Source: an uncultured virus (IMG/VR IMGVR_UViG_3300048930_001385)
Lineage: Duplodnaviria > Heunggongvirae > Uroviricota > Caudoviricetes
Reading direction: 5' to 3' (one strand)
DNA: 64,000 nt
IMG/VR virus record: IMGVR_UViG_3300048930_001385
Shown here: piece after piece, positions 94 through 63,668 of the stretch
How the letters are laid out: every line of letters begins with the position of its first letter
Numbering within the stretch: the stretch's first letter is position 1
The notes under the pieces: model-generated
The model's input: only the letters and a program-made list of their open reading frames with translations
What the model was told of the DNA's origin: nothing
The model's database searches: none
Program-made: the position numbers and the translations under genes

Positions 94-122
94 GGTAATA
101 TTATCGGCACCGCCGCCCCTTG

Positions 123-524
123 TCAGGAGGACAACCCTTCGGCCGCCTCCCATTCCCAGTCCTGGATCCACCATTCACGCAATGCTCTGACGGTGTGGAC
201 ACTGGGCGACTGCCAGGAGTTGAGGCGGGCGATATGTTGCCAGTGAGCGTAGAACTCGTCGCAGTGGTGGACGATCATCCTGCCGGGATCTTTCTCTTCG
301 GCTAGCAGTTTCATTATCACGAGGGCTACGCGATGACCCCGCTTCTTGCCGATCCCGGGCACCTCTTGCAGCGTCCGGGCGATGTGCTGAGTGAGACCGT
401 ATCCCTCAATGAGTGCTAACCGTTTCCAACTCCCCCCTCCTTTGCCGTTTATGGCCTGGGAATTGGCCTGGGGCCTCATGCTGGGTGGTAGACTAGCGAT
501 CAACACCTCATGCCAACTACTCAT
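123..524 (-). CDS. HhH (PGxG...REWW) family protein
   Basis: LPPSMR, LQEVPGIGKKRG, VRALREWW. Confidence 0.8.
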   Translation of the reverse strand: MSSWHEVLIASLPPSMRPQANSQAINGKGGGSWKRLALIEGYGLTQHIARTLQEVPGIGKKRGHRVALVIMKLLAEEKDPGRMIVHHCDEFYAHWQHIARLNSWQSPSVHTVRALREWWIQDWEWEAAEGLSS

Positions 525-528
525 ACTC

Positions 529-993
529 TCACCCTTGCCCACCCCCGCTTTCAAGCCACCATTGACGGATGAGGCGGAGTTGCTTGCGGGTGAGGGGCCG
601 ACGGTGGGGGAGCGAGGTCCCAGTCGGATAGTGCTTGGTCATCTTGCTCATCAGGCGGTTCCAGACTGTGCAGTCGGCTTGAGAGAATTTGAGAATCTTC
701 TCAGGGTCATGTTGTAAGACGTCTCCCGGTAGGGATCGACTAGCTACCTCATGAAGCAGGTAATCGGTGAAGGTTATCGCTGTGCGCTTGCCGAGCCCTG
801 GGGCCCCTGACCAAGCTTGCTCTAGGGCCGTGATAATCTCTTGGCGCTGGTGGCTGAGGTGTAGGGCTATCTGGAGAGCGTCCATATCCCCTTCCCCAAT
901 CACTGTTTCTGGGTAGGTCATGCACTCGCGTAGGCATGGCGGCAGGTCTGGTAGGTATTCGGTCTCAAACCATACTTCTTTCGCAGCCCTCAT
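529..993 (-). CDS. HhH (PGxG...REWW) family protein
   Basis: LPPCLRE, APGLGKRTA, QLRLIRQWW; ATGA overlap with the upstream paralogue. Confidence 0.8.
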   Translation of the reverse strand: MRAAKEVWFETEYLPDLPPCLRECMTYPETVIGEGDMDALQIALHLSHQRQEIITALEQAWSGAPGLGKRTAITFTDYLLHEVASRSLPGDVLQHDPEKILKFSQADCTVWNRLMSKMTKHYPTGTSLPHRRPLTRKQLRLIRQWWLESGGGQG

Positions 994-1400
994 CCTTGCC
1001 CTCCCCCGTGCTCTATCCACCATTGGCGGATGAGGCGGAGTTGTTTGCGAGTGATGGGACGTAGTGTCTTGGTGGCGAAGGGATCAAGGTCGTTGTGTCG
1101 CTCAGTCCGGAGCCTGCTAATAACTATGAGTCGTTCTGGCTCGTTATGGAGCGGGGCGCTGGGAAGCTCCGCACGAGCAGCCTGGCGGAGTAGGTAATAT
1201 GTAAAAGTGTCAGCAGCTCGGTTGCCGAGTCCTGGGATCTTGGCCCATTGAACCAGGAGTGCTGTTCTCAGGCCGCAGTAGTCGTCTATGGTCCAGACTC
1301 CTGTTCTGGACAGGGCCGGGAAGAGCTCTCTCATGGACAGGGGCAAGTCTCGCCTATAGTCCTCGTCGAGCCACTGCTGATAATTTTCAAGCCTTCCCAC
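990..1400 (-). CDS. HhH (PGxG...REWW) family protein
   Basis: LPLSMRE, KIPGLGNRAA, QLRLIRQWW. Confidence 0.8.
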   Translation of the reverse strand: MGRLENYQQWLDEDYRRDLPLSMRELFPALSRTGVWTIDDYCGLRTALLVQWAKIPGLGNRAADTFTYYLLRQAARAELPSAPLHNEPERLIVISRLRTERHNDLDPFATKTLRPITRKQLRLIRQWWIEHGGGQG

Positions 1401-1442
1401 CCTCTCAGCATAGCTCTTGATTTGACAGTGTTCAACCTATCC

Positions 1443-1853
1443 TCAAGAACGAGCCAGCCACTCGCGTACTAGCCGGGCCCTCATTACCCCACCTTCAGGC
1501 GGGATTAGCAACTCTGGAATATCATATACGATTTCACCGAGGGAGTGTCCTTCGCAGAGGCGGTGGATGATGAGATTGGTGAATACACGGCTCCAGTGGG
1601 GGCCGATACCAGGGAGGGTCTCCAAGCCGCTGAGGAGGGCGTGGTAAATGTTCGTGTCAGAGTGGAGAATGAATTCACGGTAGTCCCAGTCGCGCTCGCG
1701 CAGTATGAGATTAATGTTGTGCGTGTAGACCAAGTCTTGGATCCTGGGGTTTGGTTCATTGATGAGACCGGGGATCGCCAATCGGTCCGTTAGGGCCCGG
1801 TGCAACTCTCCCCGGAGGCGAGTGATCCGCTCCTGCTCCGATCCCCCTCTCAC
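1443..1853 (-). CDS. HhH (PGxG...REWW) family protein
   Basis: ETLPGIGPHWS, DIPELL, RLVREWL. Confidence 0.75.
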   Translation of the reverse strand: MRGGSEQERITRLRGELHRALTDRLAIPGLINEPNPRIQDLVYTHNINLILRERDWDYREFILHSDTNIYHALLSGLETLPGIGPHWSRVFTNLIIHRLCEGHSLGEIVYDIPELLIPPEGGVMRARLVREWLARS

Positions 1854-2287
1854 TCGTTCTCACCCCGCTCCGCTGTCGCCTGTACCCACCACTCGCGTAG
1901 AGCACGTACACTAGCTCGTGAGGGTGGTCGGTATTGGGTCGGGTAGTGTCCGCTGCAGACGAGGTGGTGTAGTCGCTCGGGGTCTTTGGTAATTAAAGAA
2001 TTAATGTCCTCTCCCCTGGCGATCAGGCCTCGGATCACCCAGGTGTATTCCAGACCCCAGGTCTCGCCAACCCCTGGCACCTGCTCCCAGACCTCGGCCA
2101 GGGCAATCGCCAGGTCTGAGCGATCAAGGAGGACCCTCTTCCATGTGACAAGATCACGCTGTCCTTGCATCAGTTCAAGAACAAGGTTGACCTCACTCTC
2201 GCTGAGCCTGACCACCCGAACAGGGAAAGGTAGTTGAGCCAGGGAGGCTTGCAGCTCGTTCATCGCCTGGGTGTAGTCAGCGTTCAC
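1850..2287 (-). CDS. HhH (PGxG...REWW) family protein
   Basis: EQVPGVGETWG, KDPERL, RPPSRASVRALREWW; start uncertain (ORF open to 2365). Confidence 0.75.
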   Translation of the reverse strand: MNADYTQAMNELQASLAQLPFPVRVVRLSESEVNLVLELMQGQRDLVTWKRVLLDRSDLAIALAEVWEQVPGVGETWGLEYTWVIRGLIARGEDINSLITKDPERLHHLVCSGHYPTQYRPPSRASVRALREWWVQATAERGENE

Positions 2288-2389
2288 AGGCTCACACACC
2301 TCTCCAGAGGTCGCAAATCTCACGCTGACGCAATAATCCCTGTTCCCGTGACCGCATGTTCTCACTGTAGCGCAGGAGAAAGCAGATAT

Positions 2390-2749
2390 CTAGGCCTGTG
2401 GGTCCTCATGGAGTTGTCCGCCCTCCATCGCCCCTTGCGCGAAAGCCGAGGCCCAGGTGGGGTGGTGTCCAGTGTAATTCTCGTCCTCTGCCTGGATGAC
2501 GTCATAGCCACCCTCGCAATCATCACGGACGTAGAAACCAGGGCGCTCGTCAATAGCCTGCTGTGATGCCCAGGCAATCGCTGCCAGGAGAGCATGTTCG
2601 CGGTAAGCATTGAGTGCGCGATCCAGCCCCTCCACCGTCGCCTCCAGGTGTTCACGGGTCAGCCCCAGGGCCTCCAGGTGATGGAGGATCTCATCGTCAG
2701 TGTAGTTGACGGCGATCCCGAGGAGCTGGGTGTCAAGAATCTCGGCCAT
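2390..2749 (-). CDS. hypothetical protein, paralogue of 56468-56800
   Basis: leaderless; shares ERP.F...GYDV...W..AF..GA.EGGQL. Confidence 0.8.
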   Translation of the reverse strand: MAEILDTQLLGIAVNYTDDEILHHLEALGLTREHLEATVEGLDRALNAYREHALLAAIAWASQQAIDERPGFYVRDDCEGGYDVIQAEDENYTGHHPTWASAFAQGAMEGGQLHEDPQA

Positions 2750-2831
2750 AATAAGATTATCGGCACCTGGACCAGTTTCTCGAGGCCAGCTTGGTGTCCG
2801 TTTTATAATAGACCGGGCGTGTAGGTGTCTG

Positions 2832-3161
2832 TTAGCTGAGGATGGCTTCGCGCTCGCTGTCGTTGACCTTCTGGCGAGTGAGGAACATTTTGATCGGGCG
2901 CAGTGCCGCCTTCAGCTCAGCTGCGGTAATGTCTTCGTACTCCATGCGACTATGCTCGGGGTTTGCCTTGCTTTCGATCAGGTCGATGGCTCGCGCGGCA
3001 GCGCGGCGCGGCTTGTCCCAGTATGCCCAGCCATCCGAGTTACGATTAGTCCAATCGCGCAGCTGGGCGACAGTAAGGGTTAGCGTCAGTCGGTTCGGGG
3101 TGTCACTCTGGCTGAAGCGTCGGAGTGCTTGCTGGAGATCGTAATCGTTCATGTAGCTCAT
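2832..3161 (-). CDS. hypothetical protein
   Basis: ORF between two element copies; WTNRNSDGWAYW. Confidence 0.75.
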   Translation of the reverse strand: MSYMNDYDLQQALRRFSQSDTPNRLTLTLTVAQLRDWTNRNSDGWAYWDKPRRAAARAIDLIESKANPEHSRMEYEDITAAELKAALRPIKMFLTRQKVNDSEREAILS

Positions 3162-3279
3162 ACTGTACCCTTTCGTCTGCTCTTCCTTATTATTATCGGC
3201 ACCGCGCCCGGGAGTCGGAGGACAACGGGGTGGCCACCTTACGAAGACTACGAGCAAGTACCCATGGGCTGTTGCTCAG

Positions 3280-3492
3280 TTACCGCCAGCGCCAGCCATC
3301 CCATATTAGCTCGGTGCCGTCAGCGAGGATGATTCCCTCCCAGCCATCGTCTGCCCTCTCATTATCTCGGCGAGCGAAAGTCGCATCCCAGTCAACAAGC
3401 TTCTGCTCTCGACTGAGCTCAAGCCGAGCCATCATCTGATCAGCCTCGTTCTTATCAGCACTGGCTAGGTTTAAGGCGATAGCGTAATCCAT
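3280..3492 (-). CDS. hypothetical protein, leaderless
   Basis: CGATA-N8-ATG. Confidence 0.7.
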   Translation of the reverse strand: MDYAIALNLASADKNEADQMMARLELSREQKLVDWDATFARRDNERADDGWEGIILADGTELIWDGWRWR

Positions 3493-3626
3493 AATATTGT
3501 TATCGTCACCCGCCCCAGTTCTCTCGAGGCCAGGATGGCGTCCTTCCCTGCGCGACATGAGACTCGGTGATCTACAGTTCAGCGATGTCTAGTTTTGAAA
3601 CAGCGTAATATAGTAAGTTCAATATC

Positions 3627-4136
3627 ATGGAAGAAGAAGAACTGCTCTCGTATCTGCCGCCCTTGACTCGGGATCACGCCCGAAAGCTGTACGCTCATTA
3701 TGAGCATATCATGACTGAGAATCAAGACCTGATCCCCTTCTCTTCTCGTCGCACAACGCCCAACCAACTGACATTTGATTGGCTGTTAGTTCACGAAGAT
3801 ACGCTGGTGGATGAGATCTACCATGAAGTTTTGTCTGTCAAGGGACTGGGGCCTCAACGCACTCGGGCGTTGCTGTGGGGTGATCGCGGGCTCTCATTGG
3901 AGAAGTGGATCTTCAGTGTGCGTTTGCTTCTCGTCTCCCCTGAGGCGCTATCCCATGCCGAATCTTGGGCACGAGCTCAGCGGAGAGAACACGTGAACTG
4001 GATGCGGAACAGCTATGAGATCGTGTGGCAGACATACCGGAGAGAAGACCTCATGTTTCCACCGCATCATCCGCTGTTCACCCGTCGGATGACTAAAGAG
4101 TTGCGCGACTGGGTAGCTGGTTGGCACTATGGATAA
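3627..4136 (+). CDS. divergent HhH family protein
   Basis: YLPPLTR, SVKGLGPQRT, SPEAL, ELRDW. Confidence 0.7.
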   Translation: MEEEELLSYLPPLTRDHARKLYAHYEHIMTENQDLIPFSSRRTTPNQLTFDWLLVHEDTLVDEIYHEVLSVKGLGPQRTRALLWGDRGLSLEKWIFSVRLLLVSPEALSHAESWARAQRREHVNWMRNSYEIVWQTYRREDLMFPPHHPLFTRRMTKELRDWVAGWHYG

Positions 4137-4233
4137 TTCTTGTAAAGAAAAGGCCAGTTACGCATAAGGAGAGTTGGCTTTTAACCACAACCCGTGCAAG
4201 GGGTCAACGACACACCAGCCAGTATCATTTTCC

Positions 4234-4290
4234 TGTACGATATCAGTTTGTACATAAAACTTGTACGTATTTGTACACAAAAATTGTACA
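4234..4290. repeat. five TGTAC[AG] motifs in an AT-rich intergenic stretch
   Basis: motifs at ~4234, 4249, 4262, 4272, 4285. Confidence 0.6.
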
Positions 4291-4624
4291 TAGCCTAGCC
4301 AAGATCAGCTTTGTGGGCAAGCAATGTCATACGTGATCAGAGTTCATACCCCTAGACAGCGTGGTCTTCATTGTGACTGGGCTCCGAGCAAAAAATAGCC
4401 ATCATCCTGGACCACCATTCATGCACAATCATCCATTGATGGAGAGCGAAGGGATGCATATTGGGGCTATCTTCTTTGCTATGTATTTATCGGTAACATC
4501 AACCGGATCAGGAGGACAGTCTGATGGCCTGTCATCAGGAGGTTCAGTGGATTGTGTGCACTCCAGCACAATCGCGGGCCCAAACCCACAGGTCAAACAG
4601 GCGGGTCACGCTGAACCAGTCTAC

Positions 4625-4825
4625 CTATGCCCGCACTGGCCCGTGAGCGTAGAGGCGGGTAGTGTCAATCACGCGATGGATGGCAGCTTCACAGGCAGCA
4701 GCGCGGGCCTTGCGCACGTCAGTGGCGGTGACGGTGAACATTCCAACGGTTTCGCCATGCTTCGTGTCACTGACACGGACATTGTAGGTGCGGCCACCCT
4801 TGCGCTGGTTTGAGAACTTCGCCAT
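4625..4825 (-). CDS. hypothetical protein, paralogue of 14671-14871
   Basis: MAKF.NQRKGG.TYNV.V.DTKHGE; near-identical proteins. Confidence 0.8.
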   Translation of the reverse strand: MAKFSNQRKGGRTYNVRVSDTKHGETVGMFTVTATDVRKARAAACEAAIHRVIDTTRLYAHGPVRA

Positions 4826-4934
4826 CGTGAACCTCTGCTGCCGGGGGAGGCTCTTCCTCCCTTGCTATATATTTATCGGCAGCAGAACGCGGATCCTCAA
4901 GGCCAGGTGAGTGGCCCAGCCGGATCGTCCTAGA

Positions 4935-5720
4935 TCACGAGTATATAAATTCCCGAGAATCCGACTCTATTAAGTGCCACGGCGGCTGCTCAAAGCGTCC
5001 CTCATGAACACGGTGATGAAATACATCCTCGGCAGTCATCGCACTGAGCGTGGTAAGCTGCACTCCCTCGGGGCTGTGCTCTACCCCGTGCTCGTAGTAC
5101 AGCGCTCGGGTGCAGTTGCCATGCTCGTCCCACTCTTGGTGTGCGGGCCCCTCATGGATAGGCCGATGACGCTTGCCAGCAATGCAATACTTCATGAGCG
5201 CGAGCTGACCATTCGGGTGCCACCGCTCCTGGGCAGGCCCTTCGCTCGGATCGCGGCTCAGGGTCATGAGTATATTCTTGTAGCTGATGCTGATGATCTG
5301 TTCGTCCGGTGAAAACACGGCCCTACACATCGGCCCCGGTCCATCCCAGATTCGGACGGTGTTGCCGTTCTCTGTATATTGGCGATGGACAAGGATCCGG
5401 TGAACGGGGTGTAGTTGATTGAGATGGTCAAGGTCGTGCTGGGTTTGGGAGAGGTCAGTGCCTCGGAAACTTGTCCAATCAATCCGGGCACTCGTCAAGT
5501 CGGCGCCGTCGAGCTTGGCCCCATCGAGCTTGGCTCCGCAAAGATTCGCGCCATATAGGTCAGCGCCGGTGAGATCAGCTCCCGTGAGATCCAGAGCCGA
5601 AAGGTCAGCGTGTACGAGGTCTCTCGGCCAGACGTAAGCCTGTCGCGCTTCCCCACTCCCTTCACGCCAGAGGCGGTGAAAGCTCACCGGGTCTAAGCGA
5701 GGGTGTGGAAGGATCGTCAT
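4935..5720 (-). CDS. pentapeptide-repeat plus HRxxGPA-repeat protein
   Basis: ADLSA LDLTG ADLTG ADLYG ANLCG; HRPIHEGPA; N-terminus shared with 62183-63319. Confidence 0.8.
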   Translation of the reverse strand: MTILPHPRLDPVSFHRLWREGSGEARQAYVWPRDLVHADLSALDLTGADLTGADLYGANLCGAKLDGAKLDGADLTSARIDWTSFRGTDLSQTQHDLDHLNQLHPVHRILVHRQYTENGNTVRIWDGPGPMCRAVFSPDEQIISISYKNILMTLSRDPSEGPAQERWHPNGQLALMKYCIAGKRHRPIHEGPAHQEWDEHGNCTRALYYEHGVEHSPEGVQLTTLSAMTAEDVFHHRVHEGRFEQPPWHLIESDSREFIYS

Positions 5721-5757
5721 AGTGATAGTATCGGCAGAGCGAACCTTTACTTGAGTA

Positions 5758-5839
5758 TGCGGATGGAGGGACTCGAACCCTCACATCTTGCGATACAGGA
5801 TCCTAAATCCTGCGCGTCTACCAATTCCGCCACATCCGC
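5758..5839 (-). tRNA. tRNA-Leu(TAG)
   Basis: GCGGATG acceptor, CAGGA-TTTAGGA-TCCTG anticodon arm, long variable arm, GTTCGAGTC; no encoded CCA. Confidence 0.95.
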
Positions 5840-5961
5840 TTGCCCTATTATTAACGGCACAAACACGCGAGACTAGAGGCCAATCTCTGGCCCTACTGGA
5901 ACTTCTTCTCCAGCAAGTATTTATTGAGGACAGGTAGTTGGCCTCTGGGACCTAGCCCCGC

Positions 5962-6207
5962 CTAGGCATCCCTGAGCGCTGCGGCGATGTGCTCGGCCAC
6001 GTGGGCATCGGCATCGGCCTGAGCGCTCTCACGGTTGGCATCGGCCTGCCCGCTGTTAAGGTGCTTGCCCTTACCCTCGCCCTTGAAACCACACGAGCAA
6101 GAAGCGTGGAAGCCCTCACCGTAACGAGCGCCACCCGGCGATGCCATGATTGCGGGACGAACGCGGTGGGCGGCGACAACCTCTGCGATTACTGCGATCT
6201 CGGTCAT
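5962..6207 (-). CDS. small CxCG...HxxxH putative metal-binding protein
   Basis: SCSCG, AHVAEH; related to 19964-20236 and 15282-15527. Confidence 0.7.
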   Translation of the reverse strand: MTEIAVIAEVVAAHRVRPAIMASPGGARYGEGFHASCSCGFKGEGKGKHLNSGQADANRESAQADADAHVAEHIAAALRDA

Positions 6208-6601
6208 GGTGGCATCTCCCGGTAAGATATCTACGTGTCAGGCTCTAGCCCTTGCCCTTGCCTAATATATATCGGCACGGCAAGTATTTTATTGAGGACA
6301 GATGATTGGCCTTCTGCCCCGTCGGAGATTAGGCTGTCAGCGGTGGCAATGCACGCAGGGCTTGTCGTCCTCTGTGGCCGGGCGATCAACACTCAACAGG
6401 AGGGACCCACAACGAGCCTTCCAGCTATTGGGCACAGGAGAGTCAGCAGGCTTGGCAGCGACATGTGCGACGGTGCCCGGGAGGGTCACGATGCGATCAC
6501 TAGCCTTGATATTCTGTTCTCTCCAAACTATTGGTATTCGCCCTTGCCTAGTATATATCGGCAGCGGGATGCGCTGCCAGGAGGCCAATGTCCTGACCGC
6601 C

Positions 6602-6802
6602 CTAATCCTGCCGCTTGTTCTGTCGCCAGCTGAAGCCGAATGCACCCGGCGCGTCAATGGTCGTCGTCTGACGGTTCCGGCCCCAAGTGCGACTGAAGGG
6701 ACCGAGGCGGAGCGTCCAGCTGACACCCGTCTTCGTGAAATTGACGTAGAACAGCCCGGGGATGATTGGGAAGCTCTTACGGAATCGGAGTCGGTACTTC
6801 AT
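6602..6802 (-). CDS. DUF4236-like protein
   Basis: RFRKSFPIIPG...NFTKTGVSW...G...PG.FGFSWR; paralogue at 19247. Confidence 0.75.
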   Translation of the reverse strand: MKYRLRFRKSFPIIPGLFYVNFTKTGVSWTLRLGPFSRTWGRNRQTTTIDAPGAFGFSWRQNKRQD

Positions 6803-6811
6803 GTTCTGACC

Positions 6812-6922
6812 TCAGTAGTTGGCGAGGTAGGCGGTGATCTCGCCCATGAGCCGGCGCATGAGGTCGTTGATGATTGCCTCCTGCTGCTGGGCCGTCATCG
6901 TGAAGCCAGTGAAATCAATCAT
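6812..6922 (-). CDS. 36-aa peptide, paralogue of 19772-19879
   Basis: MIDFTGFTMTAQQQEAIINDLMRRLMGEITAYLANY. Confidence 0.7.
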   Translation of the reverse strand: MIDFTGFTMTAQQQEAIINDLMRRLMGEITAYLANY

Positions 6923-56057: not shown

Positions 56058-56061
56058 TGTC

Positions 56062-56800: not shown

Positions 56801-56875
56801 GCTAATATTATCGGCAATGCCCAGTTAGAACTAGAGGACAAGCACCTGGCCCCGGCTGGCAAGCCAGTGGTCTGA

Positions 56876-57490: not shown

Positions 57491-57592
57491 AGATATTCTA
57501 TCGGTCTCGTTAAGTGATGCCGAGAGGACAATGTTATGGCCGCGTTGGATGCACTCTGTGGTAGAAATAACAATTGAGATAGGTGCAGCGAA

Positions 57593-58051
57593 CTAGATGT
57601 GGGCCATGGGATGGAGTTTCATATGTGGATCCTGATGTCGCCAGACCTGGGCCTCAATTTCCATGCCAAGCAGGCGGTAAGCGAAAAGCTCCGCATGACC
57701 ACCGTGGAGGTGCCAGTGCTCATACCCCTCCGCAAGTTCTACGGACGGCTTCTCTCCATCAAGGATCATGTCAAGCGCCTTATGGATCAGGTTGACACGA
57801 ATATCTTCATCCTTGTCCCGTATCAGGACGACATCATCCATTGTTAATCGCACGGTCTCGTTACTCTTATACCATCCTGGCGGCAGAGTCCTTTGCGTGA
57901 GACCGATACCGAGGGATCTCCTTGCTACTGAAATGTACGACCATGGATCCGCGACAAGACGGAAACGAAACTGACCACTGAGGTCTGGTTGAAACGTTAC
58001 CTCCACTGGTCCCATTTGAAAATTACGATATGTTTGTGATGGCGTGTGCAT
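57593..58051 (-). CDS. possible ParB-like domain protein
   Basis: P.V......W.L.GGH..L.AYRLLG..I. Confidence 0.5.
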   Translation of the reverse strand: MHTPSQTYRNFQMGPVEVTFQPDLSGQFRFRLVADPWSYISVARRSLGIGLTQRTLPPGWYKSNETVRLTMDDVVLIRDKDEDIRVNLIHKALDMILDGEKPSVELAEGYEHWHLHGGHAELFAYRLLGMEIEAQVWRHQDPHMKLHPMAHI

Positions 58052-58053
58052 AA

Positions 58054-58275
58054 TTAGGCGCCGTAGACCAGCTCGTGATCATCCCCGCTGAACGGGCTGT
58101 ACCAGACCTGCTCGTTCGGGGTGTAGCCGCTGATCGTGTTCTCAACAGCGCATTCACACTCGTGGAGCTGTTCGGCGAGAATCTCACGACGCAGGTGGTC
58201 GGCTTCGCTAGCCACGGCATCGCGCAGGTGGTCACGGTAACGACTGAAAGTTACAAGCTGCTTAAGCTGGTTCAT
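58054..58275 (-). CDS. hypothetical protein
   Basis: AGGAGG RBS. Confidence 0.55.
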   Translation of the reverse strand: MNQLKQLVTFSRYRDHLRDAVASEADHLRREILAEQLHECECAVENTISGYTPNEQVWYSPFSGDDHELVYGA

Positions 58276-58598
58276 CCTAACCTCCTGAGGTACTATCGGC
58301 ACCAGGCCACACTGTCTTGAGGCCAATATCGCGGGCCAGCACCTGATCTCGATGATCAATTACAGTCTTCACGCGCCGGTCACGAGTGCGTGGATCTGCT
58401 CGGGCGTATCCTTGATCACCTTGTAATCACTGACACAAAACTTTGGGCGACTTGGCACCTTAGGAATATCAATCTCCAGCTGAAGCTGGTTCGGATCCAT
58501 TGCGGTCTCTCCTGCGTTTGCTTACTTGCTGTATCGGCAGATATGGCGGTAACTAATAGGCCAACAACTTGACCCTTACGCGTGCAATTAAATTTACC

Positions 58599-58871
58599 CT
58601 AGTACGACCACAAGGCACCGACTCGCAAAGCCTCAACGAGATTCTTCTCATGACGCAACATTTCCTCACAGCTCACGTATTCGTACCCCTGATCGTCGAT
58701 CTCGTGGTAGATATGCCAGCTGCCGTCAGCAGGCGAGTAGGTAATGTGCTTGGATGACCGCACGAGCCCACCTGCGAGAGCGATGAAGCAGTCGCACCCG
58801 TCCTCATCAATGTCGATATTCGCTCGGCTTTGTAGGTCGGCGAGATCGGCAATCTTAGTATAGGTGCTCAT
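58599..58871 (-). CDS. hypothetical protein, paralogue of 13977-14237
   Basis: shared motifs. Confidence 0.8.
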   Translation of the reverse strand: MSTYTKIADLADLQSRANIDIDEDGCDCFIALAGGLVRSSKHITYSPADGSWHIYHEIDDQGYEYVSCEEMLRHEKNLVEALRVGALWSY

Positions 58872-58942
58872 GGGTAACTCCTCGGGTGCGGGATTTCTCT
58901 TTGTCTTAATATTATCGGCACCGATGATACAGGCCTTGAGGC

Positions 58943-59425
58943 CTAATGGCTGGCCCACACGCCGCCACCATTGTCAATCCACCACTCGCGTAAATTCTTA
59001 ATAGCTACTCGGGAGGGCGGGCGAGATAGGGCAGGATCTACGGCGGCTCGACAACGATCTAGTAGGTATTCTGGATCACACAGCACGAGTTCACTCGGAT
59101 GGTAGCAGTCGGCTAGCCCCTGAGCGAGGGCGGTACGAATATCGTTGGACCAGAGATTTCCCAGTCCGGCTACCTGAGATAATATAGTGTCCGCTGAGGT
59201 GCTCGGCATCCACAGGGCGTGCATTATTCGGGCCATGCCTCTCTGATGGTCGCCCTCGAATCCAGCTAGCCATTGCCGACAGCTACGCAGTGCATGATTC
59301 AGCCCCTTAGAGGGGGCATAGCATTCGCGCAGAGAACAAGGGACTAGTTCGATGCCTTCTGATACGGCCCAGTCCACATAGTCGCGGGGGCTGGTAAACA
59401 CAGAATCTAGGCACCACCTTGTCAT
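58943..59425 (-). CDS. HhH (PGxG...REWW) family protein
   Basis: VPCSLRE, QVAGLGNLWS, CDPEYL, RPPSR..IKNLREWW; TGCTATATT -10. Confidence 0.8.
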   Translation of the reverse strand: MTRWCLDSVFTSPRDYVDWAVSEGIELVPCSLRECYAPSKGLNHALRSCRQWLAGFEGDHQRGMARIMHALWMPSTSADTILSQVAGLGNLWSNDIRTALAQGLADCYHPSELVLCDPEYLLDRCRAAVDPALSRPPSRVAIKNLREWWIDNGGGVWASH

Positions 59426-59473
59426 GCTGTAAATATAGCATGACAAGGGAAACCTGCCCTCAACAGCGACAAC

Positions 59474-59878
59474 TCAACCAGTCGCTGCCTTCAACTCCGC
59501 CAGCCGCGCCTTTACCTGCTTCTCCGCGTCCAGCAACAGGCGCTTTGCCTGCTTGATGCGCTCAAGCTCCTTCTTAGCGGTCTCAACGCTATCCTGCGCC
59601 CGCCACTCACAATAAGTAGGACTCAGCTGGAAGAAATTTGTATGCTCGTTCATGAACAGGCACGACTGCGAGGAGTGGTGATAAACGCCGACCTTGACAC
59701 CATTACGACCGCTGAGAGCACGGCCAGCCCCAGGGCCAGCGCCGTAGTAGTCTTCACGCAAGAAGCTACCTTCACGACTACGACCGTGGTGGAGAGTGCG
59801 GATATCCTCTAGCAGCTGCTTACCATCCAGCTCATGCAGGCAATCGGTATTAATAAGAACAGGGATAACATTACCCAT
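59474..59878 (-). CDS. hypothetical protein
   Basis: AAGGAG RBS. Confidence 0.7.
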   Translation of the reverse strand: MGNVIPVLINTDCLHELDGKQLLEDIRTLHHGRSREGSFLREDYYGAGPGAGRALSGRNGVKVGVYHHSSQSCLFMNEHTNFFQLSPTYCEWRAQDSVETAKKELERIKQAKRLLLDAEKQVKARLAELKAATG

Positions 59879-59961
59879 GGTAGCTCCTTATTTGCTTACT
59901 GAGCACTGTATCGGCGTGACTGGGTAGGGCCAGGAGGACAATCAGGTGGCCTCTGGACTAA

Positions 59962-60366
59962 CTAGCTATGCGACGCAGCATGCGCTGCTTCTCGCGCACG
60001 TTGGTCGTGTTCCGCATTACTGATTCCATCGCCCATCGGATGTGAGTCAAAATCGATCTCATGATCATTACGATCCGCGCCGGTGATTGCCCAGTTGATC
60101 CGTGCTGATGCGTCCTCGAACATCTGCCCAGCGTTCATATGTCCGGCTTCCACAGAGATATCGCGTGCCAGCTTGACAGCCTCGTGAGCCACAACAAGGA
60201 CTGATCGCCGCACGAGCACCATCTCCTCAAGGTGATCATCACGATCCAGCTGCGAAGCGCGCTGTCGGAGGTTACGAACCGCGTTCTCAATGCGATTACG
60301 GAGGTGCCATCGGGACTTCTCCTCGGCCTTCTCGCGAGCAATTTGTGCGTGAGTGTAAGTATCCAT
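59962..60366 (-). CDS. hypothetical protein, leaderless
   Basis: CGATA-N8-ATG. Confidence 0.7.
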   Translation of the reverse strand: MDTYTHAQIAREKAEEKSRWHLRNRIENAVRNLRQRASQLDRDDHLEEMVLVRRSVLVVAHEAVKLARDISVEAGHMNAGQMFEDASARINWAITGADRNDHEIDFDSHPMGDGISNAEHDQRAREAAHAASHS

Positions 60367-60609
60367 ACAGCTAGTATCGTCACCGTCGCTGACTTGAGGA
60401 GGACAACATCCTGGCCGTCAACAACTCATGTCGCATGGAGCCCAGCCGCATGTATCACACTCTGAACTGCTGTGGGCGCACTGATCAAGAGCCTCGCCAG
60501 CGCTATCGATCTCAACGCCACAGTCTACGCACTCAGCGGCTGCCTCGCCACCCTCGTTCATATTGTCACAGCACATCGTCGCTCCTTGTCAGCATCCTCT
60601 ACACTAATG

Positions 60610-61083
60610 TCATCGGTCAAGATACGTCGAACGTGAGGCCATCTTCTGGTCTGTTTCAAGTTCGGCTACCCACCACTCGCGAAGGGCGCGCACTTGTCTC
60701 CTGGTCGGAGGGCGTAAGTTGTTTTCATGCCCTTGCGCTACCAGCGCAGAGAATGTAGCCTCTAAGATCCCCGCAGTATCTGTTAACAGTTGATCTGGTT
60801 CGTTCATGAGCATATGGGCAAAATCTTGACCATGTTCGATATAGTAGCAAAAAGTTTTTGTCAGGTCCAACGCTGCCGCGTCACCAATACCAGGTACTTG
60901 AGCAAACTCCTGCTGGATGTGTCTATCGGAGAAAAACTCAACTCGGATGAAGACTCCCATATCTGGTTTGCGGCAGGATGATCCCCCGTGCAACCCTGTG
61001 TTAAGGCTCTGGGGCAGATTAGGGAGAATGGTATTTCTTATCCACGCTCGTCTCTCGTCGCAGTCCTTGCACACTAATACCAC
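60610..61083 (-). CDS. HhH (PGxG...REWW) family protein
   Basis: LPQSL, QVPGIGDAAA, NEPDQL, RPPTRRQVRALREWW. Confidence 0.8.
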   Translation of the reverse strand: MVLVCKDCDERRAWIRNTILPNLPQSLNTGLHGGSSCRKPDMGVFIRVEFFSDRHIQQEFAQVPGIGDAAALDLTKTFCYYIEHGQDFAHMLMNEPDQLLTDTAGILEATFSALVAQGHENNLRPPTRRQVRALREWWVAELETDQKMASRSTYLDR

Positions 61084-61721
61084 CGCCCGTGCCCGTAATA
61101 ACTAGCGCAGTCAAGACATTGTCTGAGGACGACGCTGCCCATGGGGTTGCCAGCGTTATCGGCGGGGTAGAAATAACTGGTGCGCAGATACTCTTCACCT
61201 GCTTTGATTATATGTTGATCCAGTCGGTAGCCGGTGTCGTGCTCGTAGTAGCCGGTGCACTCATGGTCTTTGCGGGCTCGGTGTTTGGAGCCATTCCAGT
61301 TATAGAACTCTCCAGGCTTGTGGACAATGCGAGGCACTCCACCGTGAGGAACAGACCACCACTCACGCAAGCTCTGAAAGCCCTTACGCTGGATCTTACC
61401 TCTTGAGTGGACATATGCTTGTTGCAGGTCAGGGTGACCCAGCGCAGTGCTAATCAAAAAACCAGTCTGGAGATCCTTGCGCATACACTCGGTGTAATGA
61501 CTCTGCAGTCGCGGCCCGATACCCTCAAGTTTGCCAAGCTCTTGGTAGATGACGCTTATTAAGCCATTGCGACCACGGCCCATGAACGTCTCGGCCAAGA
61601 TCCACCGCCATCCTCGGCTTCCACCATAAGGCATGATTGTCAATCTCTCACGGACACTATCTGGCAGGTCATCATAGACATCACTGATTAACCAGTTGTA
61701 ATATGCCTGATCTTGATCCAC
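61074..61721 (-). CDS. HhH family protein with a C-terminal Cys-containing extension
   Basis: LPDSVRE, KLEGIGPR, QSLREWW, then ARKDHEC...IKAGEEY...CLDC. Confidence 0.75.
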   Translation of the reverse strand: MDQDQAYYNWLISDVYDDLPDSVRERLTIMPYGGSRGWRWILAETFMGRGRNGLISVIYQELGKLEGIGPRLQSHYTECMRKDLQTGFLISTALGHPDLQQAYVHSRGKIQRKGFQSLREWWSVPHGGVPRIVHKPGEFYNWNGSKHRARKDHECTGYYEHDTGYRLDQHIIKAGEEYLRTSYFYPADNAGNPMGSVVLRQCLDCASYYGHGRWY

Positions 61722-61753
61722 GGTCTTAGTGTAGTCTATGCTTATGCCGCTGT

Positions 61754-62110
61754 CTAGCCAAGGTCCAGGGTTCGTTGGTGGTAGACAGCATGATAGAAAT
61801 TCATCGTCTCACCCTTCCGGCTCCACCGCATCCCCTTCTCCTCGCGCCAACCATTTTTAAGAAGGTACACCTTCATGTCTTTGCGACTCAGGAGTCGGAA
61901 TCGTGTACCCCGCGCGCAGACACTGCATTGACCCGAACTGTTTGTATGAAGGCTGTGACAGCACGAGCACAGGGATAAATCGTCCGATAACGAGACCTGG
62001 TTGCAAGCGCGGTAAGGAGCTCCATGCTCGCAGCATCCTTCTAGGTTTCGAACGCGCTCTTTGTAGTCGGTACTGATTTTGCCCTCAAGAATCTCTCGCT
62101 TAGTATACAT
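61754..62110 (-). CDS. Cys-rich hypothetical protein
   Basis: CEHG, CSCC, CSVC. Confidence 0.6.
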   Translation of the reverse strand: MYTKREILEGKISTDYKERVRNLEGCCEHGAPYRACNQVSLSDDLSLCSCCHSLHTNSSGQCSVCARGTRFRLLSRKDMKVYLLKNGWREEKGMRWSRKGETMNFYHAVYHQRTLDLG

Positions 62111-62182
62111 ATTTGTATCATGACGTTACCCAGAGGCGCTGTCAAGACTCAATCCAGCTCGCACACCCCATATAATTAGGAC

Positions 62183-63319
62183 ATGAGCAGAGGCAGAGGA
62201 CAAGGCGGTGATAGGATCGGTCTGCGTTATGACCCTGTCGGGTTTCGTGCGTGGTGGGAAACCGCAGATAGGGCCCAACGCAGAGAATATGTCTGGCCGC
62301 GTGATCTGTCCGGATCCGACTTGGGCGGACTAGATCTGTCTGGCATAGACTTATCCGGTGTGGATCTGAGTAGTGCCGATCTGCGTGATACTAATCTGAG
62401 CGGAGCCAAATTAGACCCTAACCGCACGCAAGGGGTTCTTTGGAACCATGCAACTCGTTTTGATAATAGCTACCTCCTACACGATCAGTGTCCGATTAAT
62501 CTTGCTGATTATCGTTTAGCACAATCAACTCCGACTGAAATTTTTACTGACGACAACGGCGACTATGTTAAAAGGTGGCTTGACCGCAACGGACTCATGC
62601 ACCGTATTGATGGACCGGCAGAAATCATTGAGGAAACGAATACTCATGACAAGCGCATACATTACACCTGGTATCGTCATGGCCAGTGTCATCGTGACAA
62701 CGACGAACCTGCTGATATTGTTGAAAAGGATGGGGTGGTTATTGAGAGACATTGGTTTACTGATGACGTACACCACCGTGAAGTCGGCCCTGCAGAGATA
62801 GTTGAGGACGAGGAAGGGGTACTTGAGTCCTGGATGTATCATGGCGTAGCGCATCGTCCAGACGGCGGCCCAACCCTGATTAACCGCACGCGAGCAGGTC
62901 AGCTGCTCAATAGATCATATTCTCATCAAGGCGGAACACACCGTGACGAGGGGCCTGCTCGTGAAGAATGGAATGAGCAGGGAGTGAAAATCAAGGAGGA
63001 GTGGTGGCAGCATCGCCAGCTCCACCGTGAGGATGCTCCCGCGAGAACTCTCTGGAATGACCAGGGGGAGATTGAGCGCGAGATCTGGTGCTGTCAGGGC
63101 AGAGTGTCAAGAGACGATGGGCCTGCTGAAATTCATTACTACCCGAACGGTATTGTTAAGAGTGAGGTGTGGCGTCGGGGTGGGGTATACCATCGGGAGA
63201 ATGGTCCGGCGGAGATTCTCTACACACCTGAAGGAAATAAGCAATCCGAACGATGGGCTCTGAATGGTGAGTATTATGCTGGAGGACCAAACGGTGAACT
63301 CAGGCGAGATTATTATTAA
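62183..63319 (+). CDS. pentapeptide-repeat plus HRxDGPA-repeat protein
   Basis: SDLGG LDLSG IDLSG VDLSS ADLRD; about eight HRxxGPA-like units; TATAAT 6 nt before ATG. Confidence 0.85.
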   Translation: MSRGRGQGGDRIGLRYDPVGFRAWWETADRAQRREYVWPRDLSGSDLGGLDLSGIDLSGVDLSSADLRDTNLSGAKLDPNRTQGVLWNHATRFDNSYLLHDQCPINLADYRLAQSTPTEIFTDDNGDYVKRWLDRNGLMHRIDGPAEIIEETNTHDKRIHYTWYRHGQCHRDNDEPADIVEKDGVVIERHWFTDDVHHREVGPAEIVEDEEGVLESWMYHGVAHRPDGGPTLINRTRAGQLLNRSYSHQGGTHRDEGPAREEWNEQGVKIKEEWWQHRQLHREDAPARTLWNDQGEIEREIWCCQGRVSRDDGPAEIHYYPNGIVKSEVWRRGGVYHRENGPAEILYTPEGNKQSERWALNGEYYAGGPNGELRRDYY

Positions 63320-63330
63320 CACTGACTAGT

Positions 63331-63627
63331 TCAGTCAATCACCCAGTGACGACACCACTTACTGTTGATCTCTTCAAACGGATAAGAGAGCAATTCGGGG
63401 GCCTCGGGGTCAAACTGACGTGCGGTGCCGTCATACACGATTCCATCAACCAGGGTTACGTAGTGACTAATACACCGGCTCAGTCCCTTCTCAAAGAACT
63501 CTTGCCACCTCTCATCGACTCGTTCGGGGTCAACGTCAACAGGGTCAGCGACCTGTACCAGCTGACCGCCATTCGCATCGGCCCAAGCTCTTGCCCAATC
63601 GTAGCACCTGTCAAAACCATTATCCAT
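63331..63627 (-). CDS. putative papain/transglutaminase-fold protein, leaderless
   Basis: RCYDWA...SHYV...VYDGTARQF. Confidence 0.55.
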   Translation of the reverse strand: MDNGFDRCYDWARAWADANGGQLVQVADPVDVDPERVDERWQEFFEKGLSRCISHYVTLVDGIVYDGTARQFDPEAPELLSYPFEEINSKWCRHWVID

Positions 63628-63668
63628 AACGTAGATATCGGCCTCTGCGAGAATGTTCTTGAGGCCAA

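What the first reader, a model, noticed from the sequence alone, without database searches (positions are those of the whole stretch)
101..63667. About 115-120 co-oriented copies of one sigma28-like promoter element divide the window into single-gene cassettes
Seen: minus-strand consensus TG[GT]CC-TCAAG-N15-GCCGATA[AT] precedes most small ORFs and the tRNA cassettes, on average about every 500 bp, and I found none on the other strand. Known: GCCGATA[AT] -10 with a TAAA/TCAAG -35 at 15-16 nt is the FliA/SigD/WhiG (sigma28) consensus, and T4-like phages have repeated promoter/stem-loop elements implicated in modular shuffling. Inference: a large phage region is wired gene-by-gene to a flagellar/developmental-type sigma factor (host- or phage-encoded) instead of to sigma70 operons. 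The same repeat would also be the recombination substrate for gaining, losing and re-ordering genes, like an integron array without a visible integrase.
Basis: partly seen in the sequence, partly recalled or inferred. Interest (0 to 1): 0.92.

Follow-up and report, generated by a model that had tools for sequence, protein, structure and literature searches.

The report
WhiG/sigma-28-type promoter array in huge phage
About 116 same-strand copies of one promoter, built like those read by the flagellar/developmental sigma factor (sigma-28, WhiG) of actinobacteria, each drive a tiny gene or a tRNA in what looks like the accessory region of a very large uncultured phage.

Summary
A two-block weight matrix finds 116 copies on the minus strand and 4 on the plus strand at 10 bits or more (115 and 0 at 14 bits); shuffles give 0-2.

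The start site is pinned indirectly. In 21 of 116 copies an ATG with no ribosome-binding site lies exactly 8 nt after CCGATA, and that position is a purine in 112 of 116.

Core and spacing (CTCA-N16/17-GCCGA, or TCAA-N15/16-GCCGATA) equal the published actinobacterial WhiG consensus. One actinobacterial genome that encodes WhiG/FliA has the same core and the same 8-nt leaderless spacing.

The upstream GGCCA/TGKCC boxes are phage-specific. They do not co-vary, so they are not a hairpin, and they look like a regulator site centred near -43.

Three metagenome fragments share only this promoter with the window. One unrelated 68%-GC viral contig shares the core and the transcript start but has a different upstream box.

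The window lies on a 552,685-bp contig that I could not read, so whether the sigma factor is the host's or the phage's own stays open. About 90 of 114 units are single-gene cassettes. One cassette is present in three copies whose homology starts exactly at the GGCCA box.

The parts
93..63678 (-). Array of 116 co-oriented promoter copies: GGCCA-N6-TGKCCTC(AAG)-N14/15-GCCGATA-N8-purine(+1). There are 76 copies with the longer spacer, 38 with the shorter and 2 outliers.
   Evidence: Weight-matrix scan and listing; logos; spacing statistics.
12668..12719 (-). Typical leadered copy. GGCCA 12719-12715, TGGCCTCAAG from 12708, GCCGATA 12683-12677, predicted +1 at 12668 (G of GCAAGGGAGG...). A 5' hairpin GGGAGG-N5-CCTCCC and an AAGGAG ribosome-binding site follow.
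2749..2799 (-). Typical leaderless copy. The predicted +1 at 2749 is the A of the ATG of ORF 2390-2749 (119 aa). There is no ribosome-binding site.
56800..56851 (-). Leaderless copy. +1 at 56800 is the first ATG of ORF 56468-56800 (110 aa).
5843..5893 (-). Promoter copy whose +1 lies 4 nt before tRNA-Leu(tag), 5839-5758.
7095..7146 (-). Promoter copy 12 nt before tRNA-Pro(tgg), 7083-7010.
55098..55149 (-). Promoter copy 30 nt before tRNA-Leu(taa), 55068-54994.
12154..12719 (-). Cassette copy 1 of a three-copy paralogous unit: promoter, 5' hairpin, ~140-aa ORF and terminator hairpin at 12181-12154.
   Evidence: Repeat families D3 and D10; alignment; hairpin.
40022..40595 (-). Cassette copy 2. 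Its terminator hairpin (40049-40022) carries a compensatory G-C to A-T change.
52954..53522 (-). Cassette copy 3. Its hairpin (52981-52954) abuts the 3' end of the plus-strand AI-2E transporter gene.
51806..52954 (+). Opposite-strand AI-2E-family transporter gene (382 aa) without the repeat. A TAGAAT box lies 6 nt before its ATG.
   Evidence: Pfam hit; upstream sequence; contig length.
62183..63319 (+). Opposite-strand pentapeptide-repeat gene (378 aa) without the repeat. A TATAAT box lies 6 nt before its ATG.

Best explanation
Each copy is a promoter for RNA polymerase carrying a sigma-28-family sigma factor of the actinobacterial WhiG/FliA type, most likely the host's own.

Anatomy, counted from the inferred start site:
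- GCCGATA at -15 to -9 is the extended -10 box, with its A at -11.
- CTCA / TCAA at about -36 to -32 is the -35 box.
- Transcription starts at a purine 9 nt after CCGATA.
- About a fifth of the messages begin at the ATG itself (leaderless).
- About a quarter begin GCAAGGG..., often with a 5' hairpin and then a ribosome-binding site.

The two extra boxes, GGCCA (-51 to -47) and TGKCC (-40 to -36), are specific to this phage family. They most likely form a 5-N6-5 dyad for a dimeric regulator centred near -43. Such a regulator could switch the whole set of more than 100 small accessory genes and tRNAs on or off together.

Most cassettes have no terminator, so read-through should give nested transcripts. 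The repeated promoter also marks where cassettes are duplicated.

Shown: the repeat, its strand bias, its intergenic position, the fixed distance to start codons, the match to the WhiG consensus, and the same geometry in a WhiG-encoding actinobacterium.

Inferred: the start site, which sigma factor reads the element, the regulator, and that this is a phage of Actinomycetota.
For: 1. Promoter function and start site. ATG lies exactly 8 nt after CCGATA in 21 of 116 copies, against 0-6 at every other offset from 0 to 30. These ATGs have no ribosome-binding site and are mostly the first ATG of their ORF. The same position is a purine in 112 of 116 copies.

2. Family match. CTC of the -35 box is nearly invariant (115, 116 and 100 of 116). 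CGA of the -10 box is present in 108 of 116, GCCGA in 77 and CTCA in 49. The spacing is CTCA-N17 in 76 copies and N16 in 38. The published forms are WhiG1 CTCA-N16-17-GCCGAACT and WhiG2 T(A/C)AA-N16-GCCGATAA (passages read), and the flagellar consensus -35 TAAA, -10 GCCGATAA (passage of PMC8325347).

3. Host-type precedent. In 121 sampled Actinomycetota genomes CTCAAG-N14/15-GCCGATA has 86 matches (counted from the listing), against 33 for the reversed control (my sum of the control columns). By my count of the listed coordinates, 58 are N15 and 28 are N14. Genome G497 has 6 matches, all N15. Three of them have ATG or GTG exactly 8 nt after CCGATA. G497 encodes a FliA/WhiG-family sigma factor at 270 bits, over the 189.6-bit cut-off. 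90 of the 121 sampled genomes have such a sigma factor.

4. Conservation beyond the window. Fragments L173, L112 and L136 carry 6, 4 and 3 full copies, with no convincing protein similarity to the window (three weak tblastn rows at E 8e-5 to 1e-3 over 16-39 residues). Viral record G001 (41.9 kb, 68% GC) carries 5 copies of CGCTCAAG-N14/15-GCCGATA (four of them followed by a GGCAAGG-type start) plus one reverse-strand copy with CGCTAAC, and a different upstream box. No sigma gene turned up among the 33 ORFs I scanned there.

5. No alternative promoter type. Sigma-70-type sites in 12-32 kb number 11 against 12.3 expected.

6. The dyad is not a hairpin. GGCCA pairs with TGTCC 42 times and with TGGCC 33 times, while compensating GGACA+TGTCC occurs once. 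A perfect 5-bp inverted repeat is present in 34 of 105 copies.

7. Gram-positive or actinophage affinities. The tRNA-Arg is 90% identical to those of Streptomyces phages. A VG64/RDF-like gene is 77-81% identical in DNA to mycobacteriophage genes.
Against: - No transcript data exist; no sequencing run could be listed.
- The -35 word T(A/C)AA is exact in only 42 of 116 copies. The best-conserved upstream bases (TGKCC) lie outside the published -35 box, so recognition may differ from that of WhiG.
- CTCAAG-N14-GCCGATA is also common in Pseudomonadota: 200 of 401 sampled genomes have at least one match. Three of 14 examples I fetched have ATG 7-8 nt after CCGATA. The core alone therefore does not name the host phylum.
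- WhiG/FliA is normally a low-abundance sigma factor held by an anti-sigma factor. That makes it an odd choice for more than 100 genes unless the phage frees or replaces it.
- The window is 64 kb of a 552,685-bp contig. A phage-encoded sigma factor could lie in the unread part.
- The VG64-like gene is equally similar to Paenibacillus and Bacillus phage genes.
- That this is a phage at all rests on gene content and relatives. No virion gene lies in the window.
Confidence: 0.5

Rival explanations
1. The promoter is the same sigma-28-type element, but it is read by a WhiG/FliA-like sigma factor encoded elsewhere on the 552-kb element or carried in the virion. The array would then be a phage-autonomous regulon, and the match to the host consensus would reflect common ancestry of the sigma factor.
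For: - The contig is 552,685 bp and only 64 kb was readable.
- The upstream TGKCC block is better conserved than the canonical -35 word, which would fit a sigma factor with altered region 4.
- More than 100 strong copies could out-compete a scarce host sigma factor.
- An earlier unchecked note (e1-5785242) describes a 149-kb soil phage that has its own FliA/WhiG-like sigma factor and matching boxes.
Against: - No sigma gene lies in the window.
- No sigma gene turned up among the 33 scanned ORFs of the 41.9-kb record G001, which uses the same core. That record is only 43% complete.
- tblastn with an actinobacterial WhiG found no close homologue in 50,697 phage records. The best hits were unannotated faecal fragments at 37-46% identity.
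- The only IMG/VR hit was unrelated.
- Small fast-changing genes of this kind are usually early genes, which need a polymerase already present at infection.
Confidence: 0.3
2. The resemblance to sigma-28 promoters is superficial. The element would be read by an unrelated phage-specific system, either a single-subunit or non-canonical multisubunit polymerase or a sigma factor of another group. The conserved GGCCA...TGKCCTC...GCCGATA...GCAAGGG would be one long recognition sequence.
For: - Conservation extends over about 60 nt, including the initial transcribed GCAAGGG in about 25 of 116 copies, as in long phage-polymerase promoters.
- Huge phages can encode their own polymerases (recalled, not tested here).
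Against: - The element is bipartite with a 1-nt variable spacer (76 against 38 copies), which is typical of sigma-factor promoters.
- Information is concentrated in two boxes at -35 and -10, with A at -11.
- The identical core and spacing, with leaderless starts, occur in bacterial chromosomes.
- G001 keeps the core but has different flanking boxes.
Confidence: 0.08
3. The repeat exists mainly as a recombination or mobility site, with cassette capture like integron attC sites or a miniature mobile element. Any promoter activity would be secondary.
For: - A three-copy cassette has homology that begins exactly at the GGCCA box and ends at a terminator hairpin next to the following GGCCA box.
- Four further dispersed two-copy repeats exist: D11, D12, D13 and D17.
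- Relatives share the repeat but no genes.
Against: - The fixed 8-nt distance to start codons and the purine at +1 are promoter properties.
- No integrase or transposase lies in the window.
- The dyad arms do not co-vary, so no folded attC-like structure is maintained.
- All copies share one orientation with their genes.
Confidence: 0.05

Closest known systems
WhiG/FliA (sigma-28 family) promoters of Actinomycetota. WhiG2: T(A/C)AA-N16-GCCGATAA. WhiG1: CTCA-N16-17-GCCGAACT. Source: bioRxiv 10.64898/2026.01.14.699351, abstract and passages read. Rubrobacter WhiG targets with mapped start sites: PMC8325347, passages read.
   Same: Same -35 word (CTCA/TCAA), same spacer length, same -10 core (GCCGA, CGA nearly invariant). 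The same short distance to start codons is seen in a WhiG-encoding actinobacterial genome.
   Different: - 116 copies lie in 64 kb of a mobile element, where reported host regulons have about a dozen to a few dozen sites.
- There is an extra invariant TGKCC directly upstream of the -35 box, and a GGCCA box 6 nt further upstream.
- Many copies share the conserved transcript start GCAAGGG.
- No paper found by my searches mentions phage targets. Searches were judged from their listings, apart from passages opened in PMC7286023, PMC3247240 and PMC5300878. The word 'phage' occurs 0 times in the preprint.
Class 3 flagellar promoters of Proteobacteria and Firmicutes (FliA/SigD), TAAAGTTT-N11-GCCGATAA (passage of PMC7286023); TAAAAG-N15-GCCGATA (passage of PMC3247240).
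   Same: Same -10 box and overall two-box geometry. A CTCAAG-N14-GCCGATA variant is frequent in sampled Pseudomonadota.
   Different: The window's dominant spacer is 1 nt longer: 76 of 116 copies. In the three proteobacterial genomes with many listed matches (G355, G033, G322), 19 of 21 matches have the shorter spacer. The -35 word is CTCA rather than TAAA.
PeSL cassettes (promoter-early stem-loops) of T4-type phages (PMC2839356, abstract read).
   Same: Small regulatory cassettes are repeated through a region rich in non-essential ORFan genes. The repeats coincide with duplication and exchange boundaries. Some units end in a terminator hairpin.
   Different: - PeSL promoters are sigma-70-like; these are sigma-28-like.
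- Only about 5-8 of 45 tested intergenic spacers here hold a strong hairpin, and spacers as a group are no more structured than coding DNA (p = 0.42).
- Mini-circles and exchanges between relatives could not be tested.
Class II activator-dependent promoters with a 5-N6-5 dyad overlapping the -35 box (CRP-type architecture; recalled, not from a call).
   Same: GGCCA-N6-TGGCC has the 5-N6-5 layout and is centred near -43 or -42.5, overlapping the -35 region.
   Different: The half-site sequence is unlike CRP sites. The right arm is TGTCC in nearly half of the copies. No binding protein is identified. The centre is 1-2 bp further upstream than the textbook -41.5.

Membership tests
Sigma-28 (FliA/SigD/WhiG)-dependent promoter | -10 box GCCGATAA with an invariant central CGA | tested here: met
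   CGA in 108 of 116 copies, GCCGA in 77, CCGATA nearly invariant; the next base is A in 59 of 116.
Sigma-28 (FliA/SigD/WhiG)-dependent promoter | -35 box TAAA / T(A/C)AA / CTCA | tested here: met
   CTC present in 115, 116 and 100 of 116 copies. Exact CTCA in 49, T(A/C)AA in 42. This meets the WhiG1-type word. The match to TAAA is weak.
Sigma-28 (FliA/SigD/WhiG)-dependent promoter | Spacer of 15-17 nt between the -35 word and GCCGA | tested here: met
   CTCA-N17 in 76 copies, N16 in 38, other spacings in 2 of 116.
Sigma-28 (FliA/SigD/WhiG)-dependent promoter | Transcription start a few nt downstream of the -10 box | tested here: inconclusive
   Only indirect evidence: 21 leaderless ATGs at one fixed offset and a purine in 112 of 116 copies. 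No RNA data.
Sigma-28 (FliA/SigD/WhiG)-dependent promoter | Transcription depends on a sigma-28-family sigma factor | not testable with these tools
   No genome is held for the window. The host is unknown. No sigma gene lies in the window.
PeSL-type mobile regulatory cassette | Strong early promoter coupled to a terminator stem-loop | tested here: not met
   The promoter is present. A strong hairpin is seen in only about 5-8 of 45 spacers, with no overall excess of structure. Terminator-like sites number 11 against 14.3 expected.
PeSL-type mobile regulatory cassette | Gene gain, loss or exchange breakpoints at the repeats | tested here: inconclusive
   Within the window, the three-copy cassette starts at the GGCCA box. 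No related genome was available for comparing gene order.
Integron gene-cassette array | Integrase gene and attC sites with a folded imperfect dyad | tested here: not met
   No integrase lies in the window. The dyad arms do not co-vary.
Single-subunit (T7-like) polymerase promoter | One contiguous ~20-nt recognition sequence at a fixed distance from +1 | tested here: not met
   Two boxes are separated by a weakly conserved spacer of variable length, 13 or 14 nt between the matrix blocks.
Hairpin promoter or RNA stem-loop formed by GGCCA-N6-TGKCC | Base pairing kept by compensatory change | tested here: not met
   GGCCA+TGTCC 42, GGCCA+TGGCC 33, GGACA+TGTCC 1. A perfect repeat in 34 of 105 copies.

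The most novel reading that the evidence does not exclude
A phage with a genome of at least half a megabase has tied more than 100 accessory genes and its tRNAs to the host's c-di-GMP-controlled lifestyle sigma factor (WhiG/FliA). Its programme would then fire only in cells that are in the motile or piliated state, the state that also displays the likely receptor. It adds its own master regulator through a phage-specific dyad at about -43, so one protein can switch the whole array. The promoter doubles as the joint at which cassettes are copied and exchanged among phages of these hosts.
Probability: 0.25. Interest if true: 0.8.

Novelty: new variant of a known kind. Interest (0 to 1): 0.66.

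Why it matters
Phage early and accessory genes are normally described as read by the host's housekeeping sigma factor or by phage-made polymerases and sigma factors.

An array of more than 100 promoters of the sigma-28/WhiG type would mean one of two things. Either infection is gated by the host's motility, pilus or developmental state, or huge phages carry their own version of this sigma factor.

It also gives a simple sequence signature, CTCA-N16/17-GCCGATA-N8-purine plus family-specific upstream boxes. That signature could be used to annotate transcription units, leaderless genes and host phylum in uncultured phages.

Finally, it provides about 116 natural variants of one promoter for testing how WhiG-type sigma factors read DNA.

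The searches I ran found no paper describing such an array. Searches were judged from their listings, apart from passages opened in three of the papers listed.

Tried and rejected
- Whole genome: none is held.
- Cultured relatives: megablast of 8 kb found only a ~300-nt gene match to mycobacteriophages. Sensitive blastn of 8 kb found only tRNA-Arg matches. tblastn of a 292-aa ORFan found nothing. The dNK gene reached at most 34% identity.
- IMG/VR: a protein scan found nothing. The 19-mer found nothing. GGCCA-N6-TGGCCTCAAG gave 111 loci, each of the 80 tabulated rows a single match; none of the stored loci held more than one weight-matrix hit at 12 bits. The full pattern had 0 matches.
- GTDB genomes: 102 loci, each of the 80 tabulated rows a single match; the printed matches looked like coding sequence to me, and no array was found.
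- Streptomyces phage JustBecause, which has the tRNA-Arg match: no motif enrichment in 40 kb.
- Host inference from the AI-2E transporter: best homologues are at most 30% identical and uninformative.
- Terminase of G001: at most 38% identity to phages of many phyla, so no host call.
- Search for phage-encoded WhiG-like sigma factors: no cultured actinophage hit. The one IMG/VR locus is an unrelated 40%-GC contig without the motif.
- Presence of WhiG against motif count across 121 Actinomycetota: the exact pattern is too rare per genome to correlate.
- GGCC restriction-site avoidance outside the promoters: none.
- A sigma-54 reading of GGCCA...TGKCC: rejected by eye because the GG/GC spacing does not fit (no call).
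- A TCAAG -35 word reported for Pseudomonas putida FliA: recalled, not found in the paper I opened.
- Earlier notes of this scan for this genome or for look-alike sequence: none.

Full report
**1. The observation**

The repeat is real, strongly strand-specific and far above chance.
- TCAAG-N13-17-GCCGATA occurs 20 times, all on the minus strand, against 0.05 expected.
- GCCGATAW occurs 54 times, 49 minus and 5 plus, against 3.99 expected.
- CCGATA occurs 111 times on the minus strand and 23 on the plus strand.

I built a two-block weight matrix from the window (nnTGKCCTCAA, gap, nnGCCGATAnn). It finds 116 minus-strand and 4 plus-strand sites at 10 bits or more, 115 and 0 at 14 bits, and 104 and 0 at 20 bits. 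Ten shuffles gave 0-2. The matrix was trained on the window, so only the strand contrast and the shuffle contrast count as tests. The nine plus-strand hits at 8 bits or more (four of them at 10 bits or more) are weak, at most 13 bits, and lack the upstream box.

The median spacing is 418 nt and the mean is 552 nt.

**2. Anatomy**

Aligned copies give this consensus: GGCCA, then 5-6 unconserved bases and a T/C, then T-G-K-C-C-T-C (108, 115, [G 63 / T 51], 116, 115, 116 and 100 of 116), then A-A-G (59, 64, 94). A weakly conserved spacer follows, often ATAA. Then come (T)GCCGATA (G 89, C 103, C 116, G 115, A 109, T 115, A 109) and usually an A (59).

The gap between the two blocks is 14 nt in 76 copies, 13 nt in 38, and 12 or 15 nt in one each.

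Nine bases after CCGATA the base is a purine in 112 of 116 copies (A 54, G 58).

**3. The start site, inferred**

In 21 of 116 copies an ATG lies exactly 8 nt after CCGATA. At every other offset from 0 to 30 the count is 0-6. These ATGs have no ribosome-binding site upstream. They are mostly the first ATG of the ORF listed mechanically, for example 2749, 25814, 28612, 30609, 56800, 57490, 60366 and 63627.

Allowing offsets of -2 to +3 and GTG, 25 units are leaderless, 76 have a ribosome-binding-site match of 4 or more bases, 13 have none and 2 have no ORF.

A fixed distance to start codons is what a promoter for leaderless messages predicts. It places +1 at the purine. With that numbering:
- GCCGATA is -15 to -9, with its A at -11.
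- CTCA is -36 to -33 in the long-spacer class.
- TGKCC is -40 to -36.
- GGCCA is -51 to -47.

About 25 copies start the transcript with GCAAGGG. Several of these have a 5' hairpin GGGAGG-N5-CCTCCC before the ribosome-binding site.

**4. Context**

The window is almost entirely small minus-strand ORFs with a median length of 81 aa. Of 137 ORFs scanned against Pfam, 13 had a hit: pentapeptide repeats, YunG, DUF4430, DUF4236, a VG64/RDF-like protein, GmrSD_C, a GNAT, an HNH repeat, a deoxynucleoside kinase and an AI-2E transporter. Of 107 scanned against PHROGs, 6 had a hit. None is a sigma factor, polymerase, integrase or virion protein.

There are four tRNAs. Three have their own promoter copy, with leaders of 4, 12 and 30 nt.

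In 12-32 kb there is no excess of sigma-70-type promoters (11 against 12.3 expected) or of canonical terminators (11 against 14.3 expected).

The first ORF ends within 40 nt of the next GGCCA box, or overlaps it by at most 20 nt, in 61 of 114 units. It ends within 41-150 nt in 25 more. 24 units are longer than that, and 4 overlap by more than 20 nt.

Intergenic spacers as a group are no more structured than coding DNA (p = 0.42). About 5-8 of 45 spacers do hold a strong hairpin. Most units should therefore be read through.

Two plus-strand genes lack the repeat: the AI-2E transporter at 51806-52954 and a pentapeptide protein at 62183-63319. Each has a TAGAAT or TATAAT box 6 nt before its ATG.

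A protein of the window lies on a contig of 552,685 bp. With its tRNAs, phage-family genes and ORFan density, I read the element as a huge phage. No virion gene is in view, so this remains an inference.

**5. What kind of promoter**

The -10 box is the sigma-28 box. The flagellar consensus is quoted as TAAAGTTT-N11-GCCGATAA (passage of PMC7286023) and as -35 TAAA, -10 GCCGATAA (passage of PMC8325347).

A 2026 preprint on WhiG in Actinomycetota (abstract and passages read) gives two forms: T(A/C)AA-N16-GCCGATAA for WhiG2 and CTCA-N16-17-GCCGAACT for WhiG1. It notes that the -35 box and the central CGA are the conserved parts.

The window's element reads CTCA-N17 (76 copies) or CTCA-N16 (38 copies) followed by GCCGATA. 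This is the same as TCAA-N16 or N15 followed by GCCGATA. CGA is present in 108 of 116 copies, GCCGA in 77, CTCA in 49 and T(A/C)AA in 42.

So the element combines the WhiG1-type -35 word and spacing with the classical -10 box.

**6. Test in genomes**

I searched for CTCAAG-N14/15-GCCGATA in sampled genomes.

Actinomycetota:
- In 121 genomes there were 86 matches in 53 genomes, against 33 for the reversed control pattern.
- By my count of the listed coordinates, 58 matches have N15 and 28 have N14.
- Genome G497 has 6 matches, all N15. Three are followed by ATG or GTG exactly 8 nt after CCGATA, the same leaderless geometry as in the window.
- The downstream genes include an HD-GYP-type phosphodiesterase and a sugar transferase.
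- G497 encodes a FliA/WhiG-family sigma factor over the curated cut-off. So do 90 of the 121 sampled genomes.

Pseudomonadota:
- 200 of 401 sampled genomes have at least one match.
- In the three genomes with many listed matches (G355, G033, G322), 19 of 21 matches have the shorter N14 spacer.
- Of 14 sites fetched, 3 have ATG 7-8 nt after CCGATA.

The core is therefore a genuine bacterial sigma-28 promoter form in both phyla. The window's dominant spacing, the published WhiG consensus and the actinophage-like tRNA-Arg (90% identity) lean towards Actinomycetota. The VG64-like gene also fits: 77-81% DNA identity to mycobacteriophage genes. However, it is also 68% identical in protein to a Paenibacillus phage gene. 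The host call is a lean, not a result.

**7. The upstream boxes**

GGCCA and TGKCC look like an inverted repeat, but the arms do not co-vary. GGCCA goes with TGTCC 42 times and with TGGCC 33 times. The compensating GGACA+TGTCC occurs once. Only 34 of 105 copies form a perfect 5-bp repeat. A DNA or RNA hairpin is therefore not what is conserved.

The six G497 promoters show no such boxes.

The layout is 5-N6-5, with half-sites one helical turn apart, centred near -43. That is the layout of a site for a dimeric regulator overlapping the -35 region. This is inference, and no protein is identified.

**8. Relatives**

No cultured phage, IMG/VR contig or GTDB genome holds the full element.

The metagenome scan found three short contigs with 6, 4 and 3 complete copies: L173, L112 and L136. 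They include the GGCCA box, the GCAAGG start and one leaderless case. They share no convincing protein or gene-level DNA similarity with the window. Only three weak tblastn rows appeared, at E 8e-5 to 1e-3 over 16-39 residues, and the DNA matches were confined to the promoter copies.

A search for the -10 box plus transcript start found IMG/VR record G001 (41.9 kb, 68% GC, 43% complete). It has five copies of CGCTCAAG-N14/15-GCCGATA on one strand and one CGCTAAC variant on the other. Four of the five forward copies and the reverse copy are followed by a GGCAAGG-type start after 5-6 variable bases. All six have a different conserved upstream box in place of GGCCA/TGKCC, roughly CCTGAATAGGAGACGG at four forward copies and the reverse one.

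G001 has a terminase, tail genes and methylases. No sigma gene turned up among the 33 ORFs scanned.

A shared core with family-specific upstream boxes is what one expects if the core is read by a common, probably cellular, sigma factor and each phage adds its own regulator.

**9. Cassette dynamics**

One unit occurs three times, at 12.2, 40.0 and 53.0 kb. It consists of the promoter, a 5' hairpin, a ~140-aa ORF and a terminator hairpin. Identity is 83-93% over the 300-nt core repeat D3.

In the alignment the flanks are unrelated. Homology begins exactly at the GGCCA box. It ends after the hairpin, directly before the next GGCCA box in two of the three copies. The hairpin carries one compensatory G-C to A-T change.

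Four more dispersed two-copy repeats exist.

This fits duplication by recombination at or near the promoter repeat, as described for T4-type PeSL cassettes (abstract of PMC2839356). I could not compare gene order in a related genome.

**10. Verdict**

- The sigma-28/WhiG-type reading is supported by sequence, spacing, inferred start site and bacterial precedent.
- The source of the sigma factor, host or phage, is open because most of the contig could not be read.
- Earlier notes of this scan (unchecked AI notes) describe similar sigma-28-type arrays in other uncultured phages, one of which has its own FliA/WhiG-like sigma factor. I used them only to weight the rivals.
- My literature searches found no paper describing such arrays in phages. 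Searches were judged from their listings, apart from passages opened in PMC7286023, PMC3247240 and PMC5300878.
- The tallies include genomes flagged as unpublished (G407, G424, G454, G494, G526).

Noticed in passing
window 51690-51806 and 62065-62183 (+): The two long plus-strand genes (AI-2E transporter, pentapeptide protein) lack the repeat. Each has a TAGAAT or TATAAT box 6 nt before its ATG. They may be leaderless genes read by the housekeeping sigma factor, under separate control from the array.
   Followed up: partly
window about 42310-42411 (-): The promoter copy at 42453 is followed by no ORF. About 50-90 nt downstream there is a perfect tRNA T-arm-like stretch (GCGGGTTCGAATCCCGC). Neither ARAGORN nor Rfam calls it. 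It could be a degenerate or unusual tRNA or another small RNA.
   Followed up: partly
window 12154-12181, 40022-40049, 52954-52981 (-); similar hairpins after the genes at 23975, 16017 and 34467: A family of 12-bp GC-rich terminator-type hairpins, one with a compensatory change. The copy at 52954-52981 abuts the 3' end of the opposite-strand transporter gene and could terminate both directions.
   Followed up: partly
window 55956-56064, 22552-22621, 31368-31437, 36320-36389 (repeat family D6): A further ~30-nt conserved stretch (…GGCCGCCTTGCGGA.TCTGCACGA… on the plus strand) lies just upstream of the GGCCA box in 9 copies. Two overlapping copies start 39 nt apart within 55956-56064. It may be a conserved C-terminal coding segment or another site.
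   Followed up: no
window 12-32 kb: Promoter copies here form a subfamily with a conserved spacer (AAGATAAATTCAT) and the GCAAGGG(AGG…CCTCCC) leader. This suggests recent spread of a promoter-plus-5'UTR module.
   Followed up: partly
G001 = IMGVR_UViG_3300048581_000047, 7.4-10.3 kb and 21.9 kb: An unrelated 68%-GC viral contig uses the same CTCAAG…GCCGATA core (most copies also the GGCAAGG start), with its own 16-nt upstream box. One divergent promoter pair lies at 7462/7624.
   Followed up: partly
Sample of 121 Actinomycetota genomes: 90 of 121 carry a FliA/WhiG-family sigma factor above the NCBIfam cut-off, many in small (1.3-3 Mb) genomes. The sigma factor is far more widespread in the phylum than the Streptomyces sporulation literature suggests, as the 2026 preprint also reports.
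   Followed up: no
window 25188-25814 (-), 40081-40500 (-): A GmrSD_C-like nuclease-domain protein (leaderless cassette) and an HNH-repeat protein sit among the ORFans. They may be homing or anti-defence nucleases.
   Followed up: no
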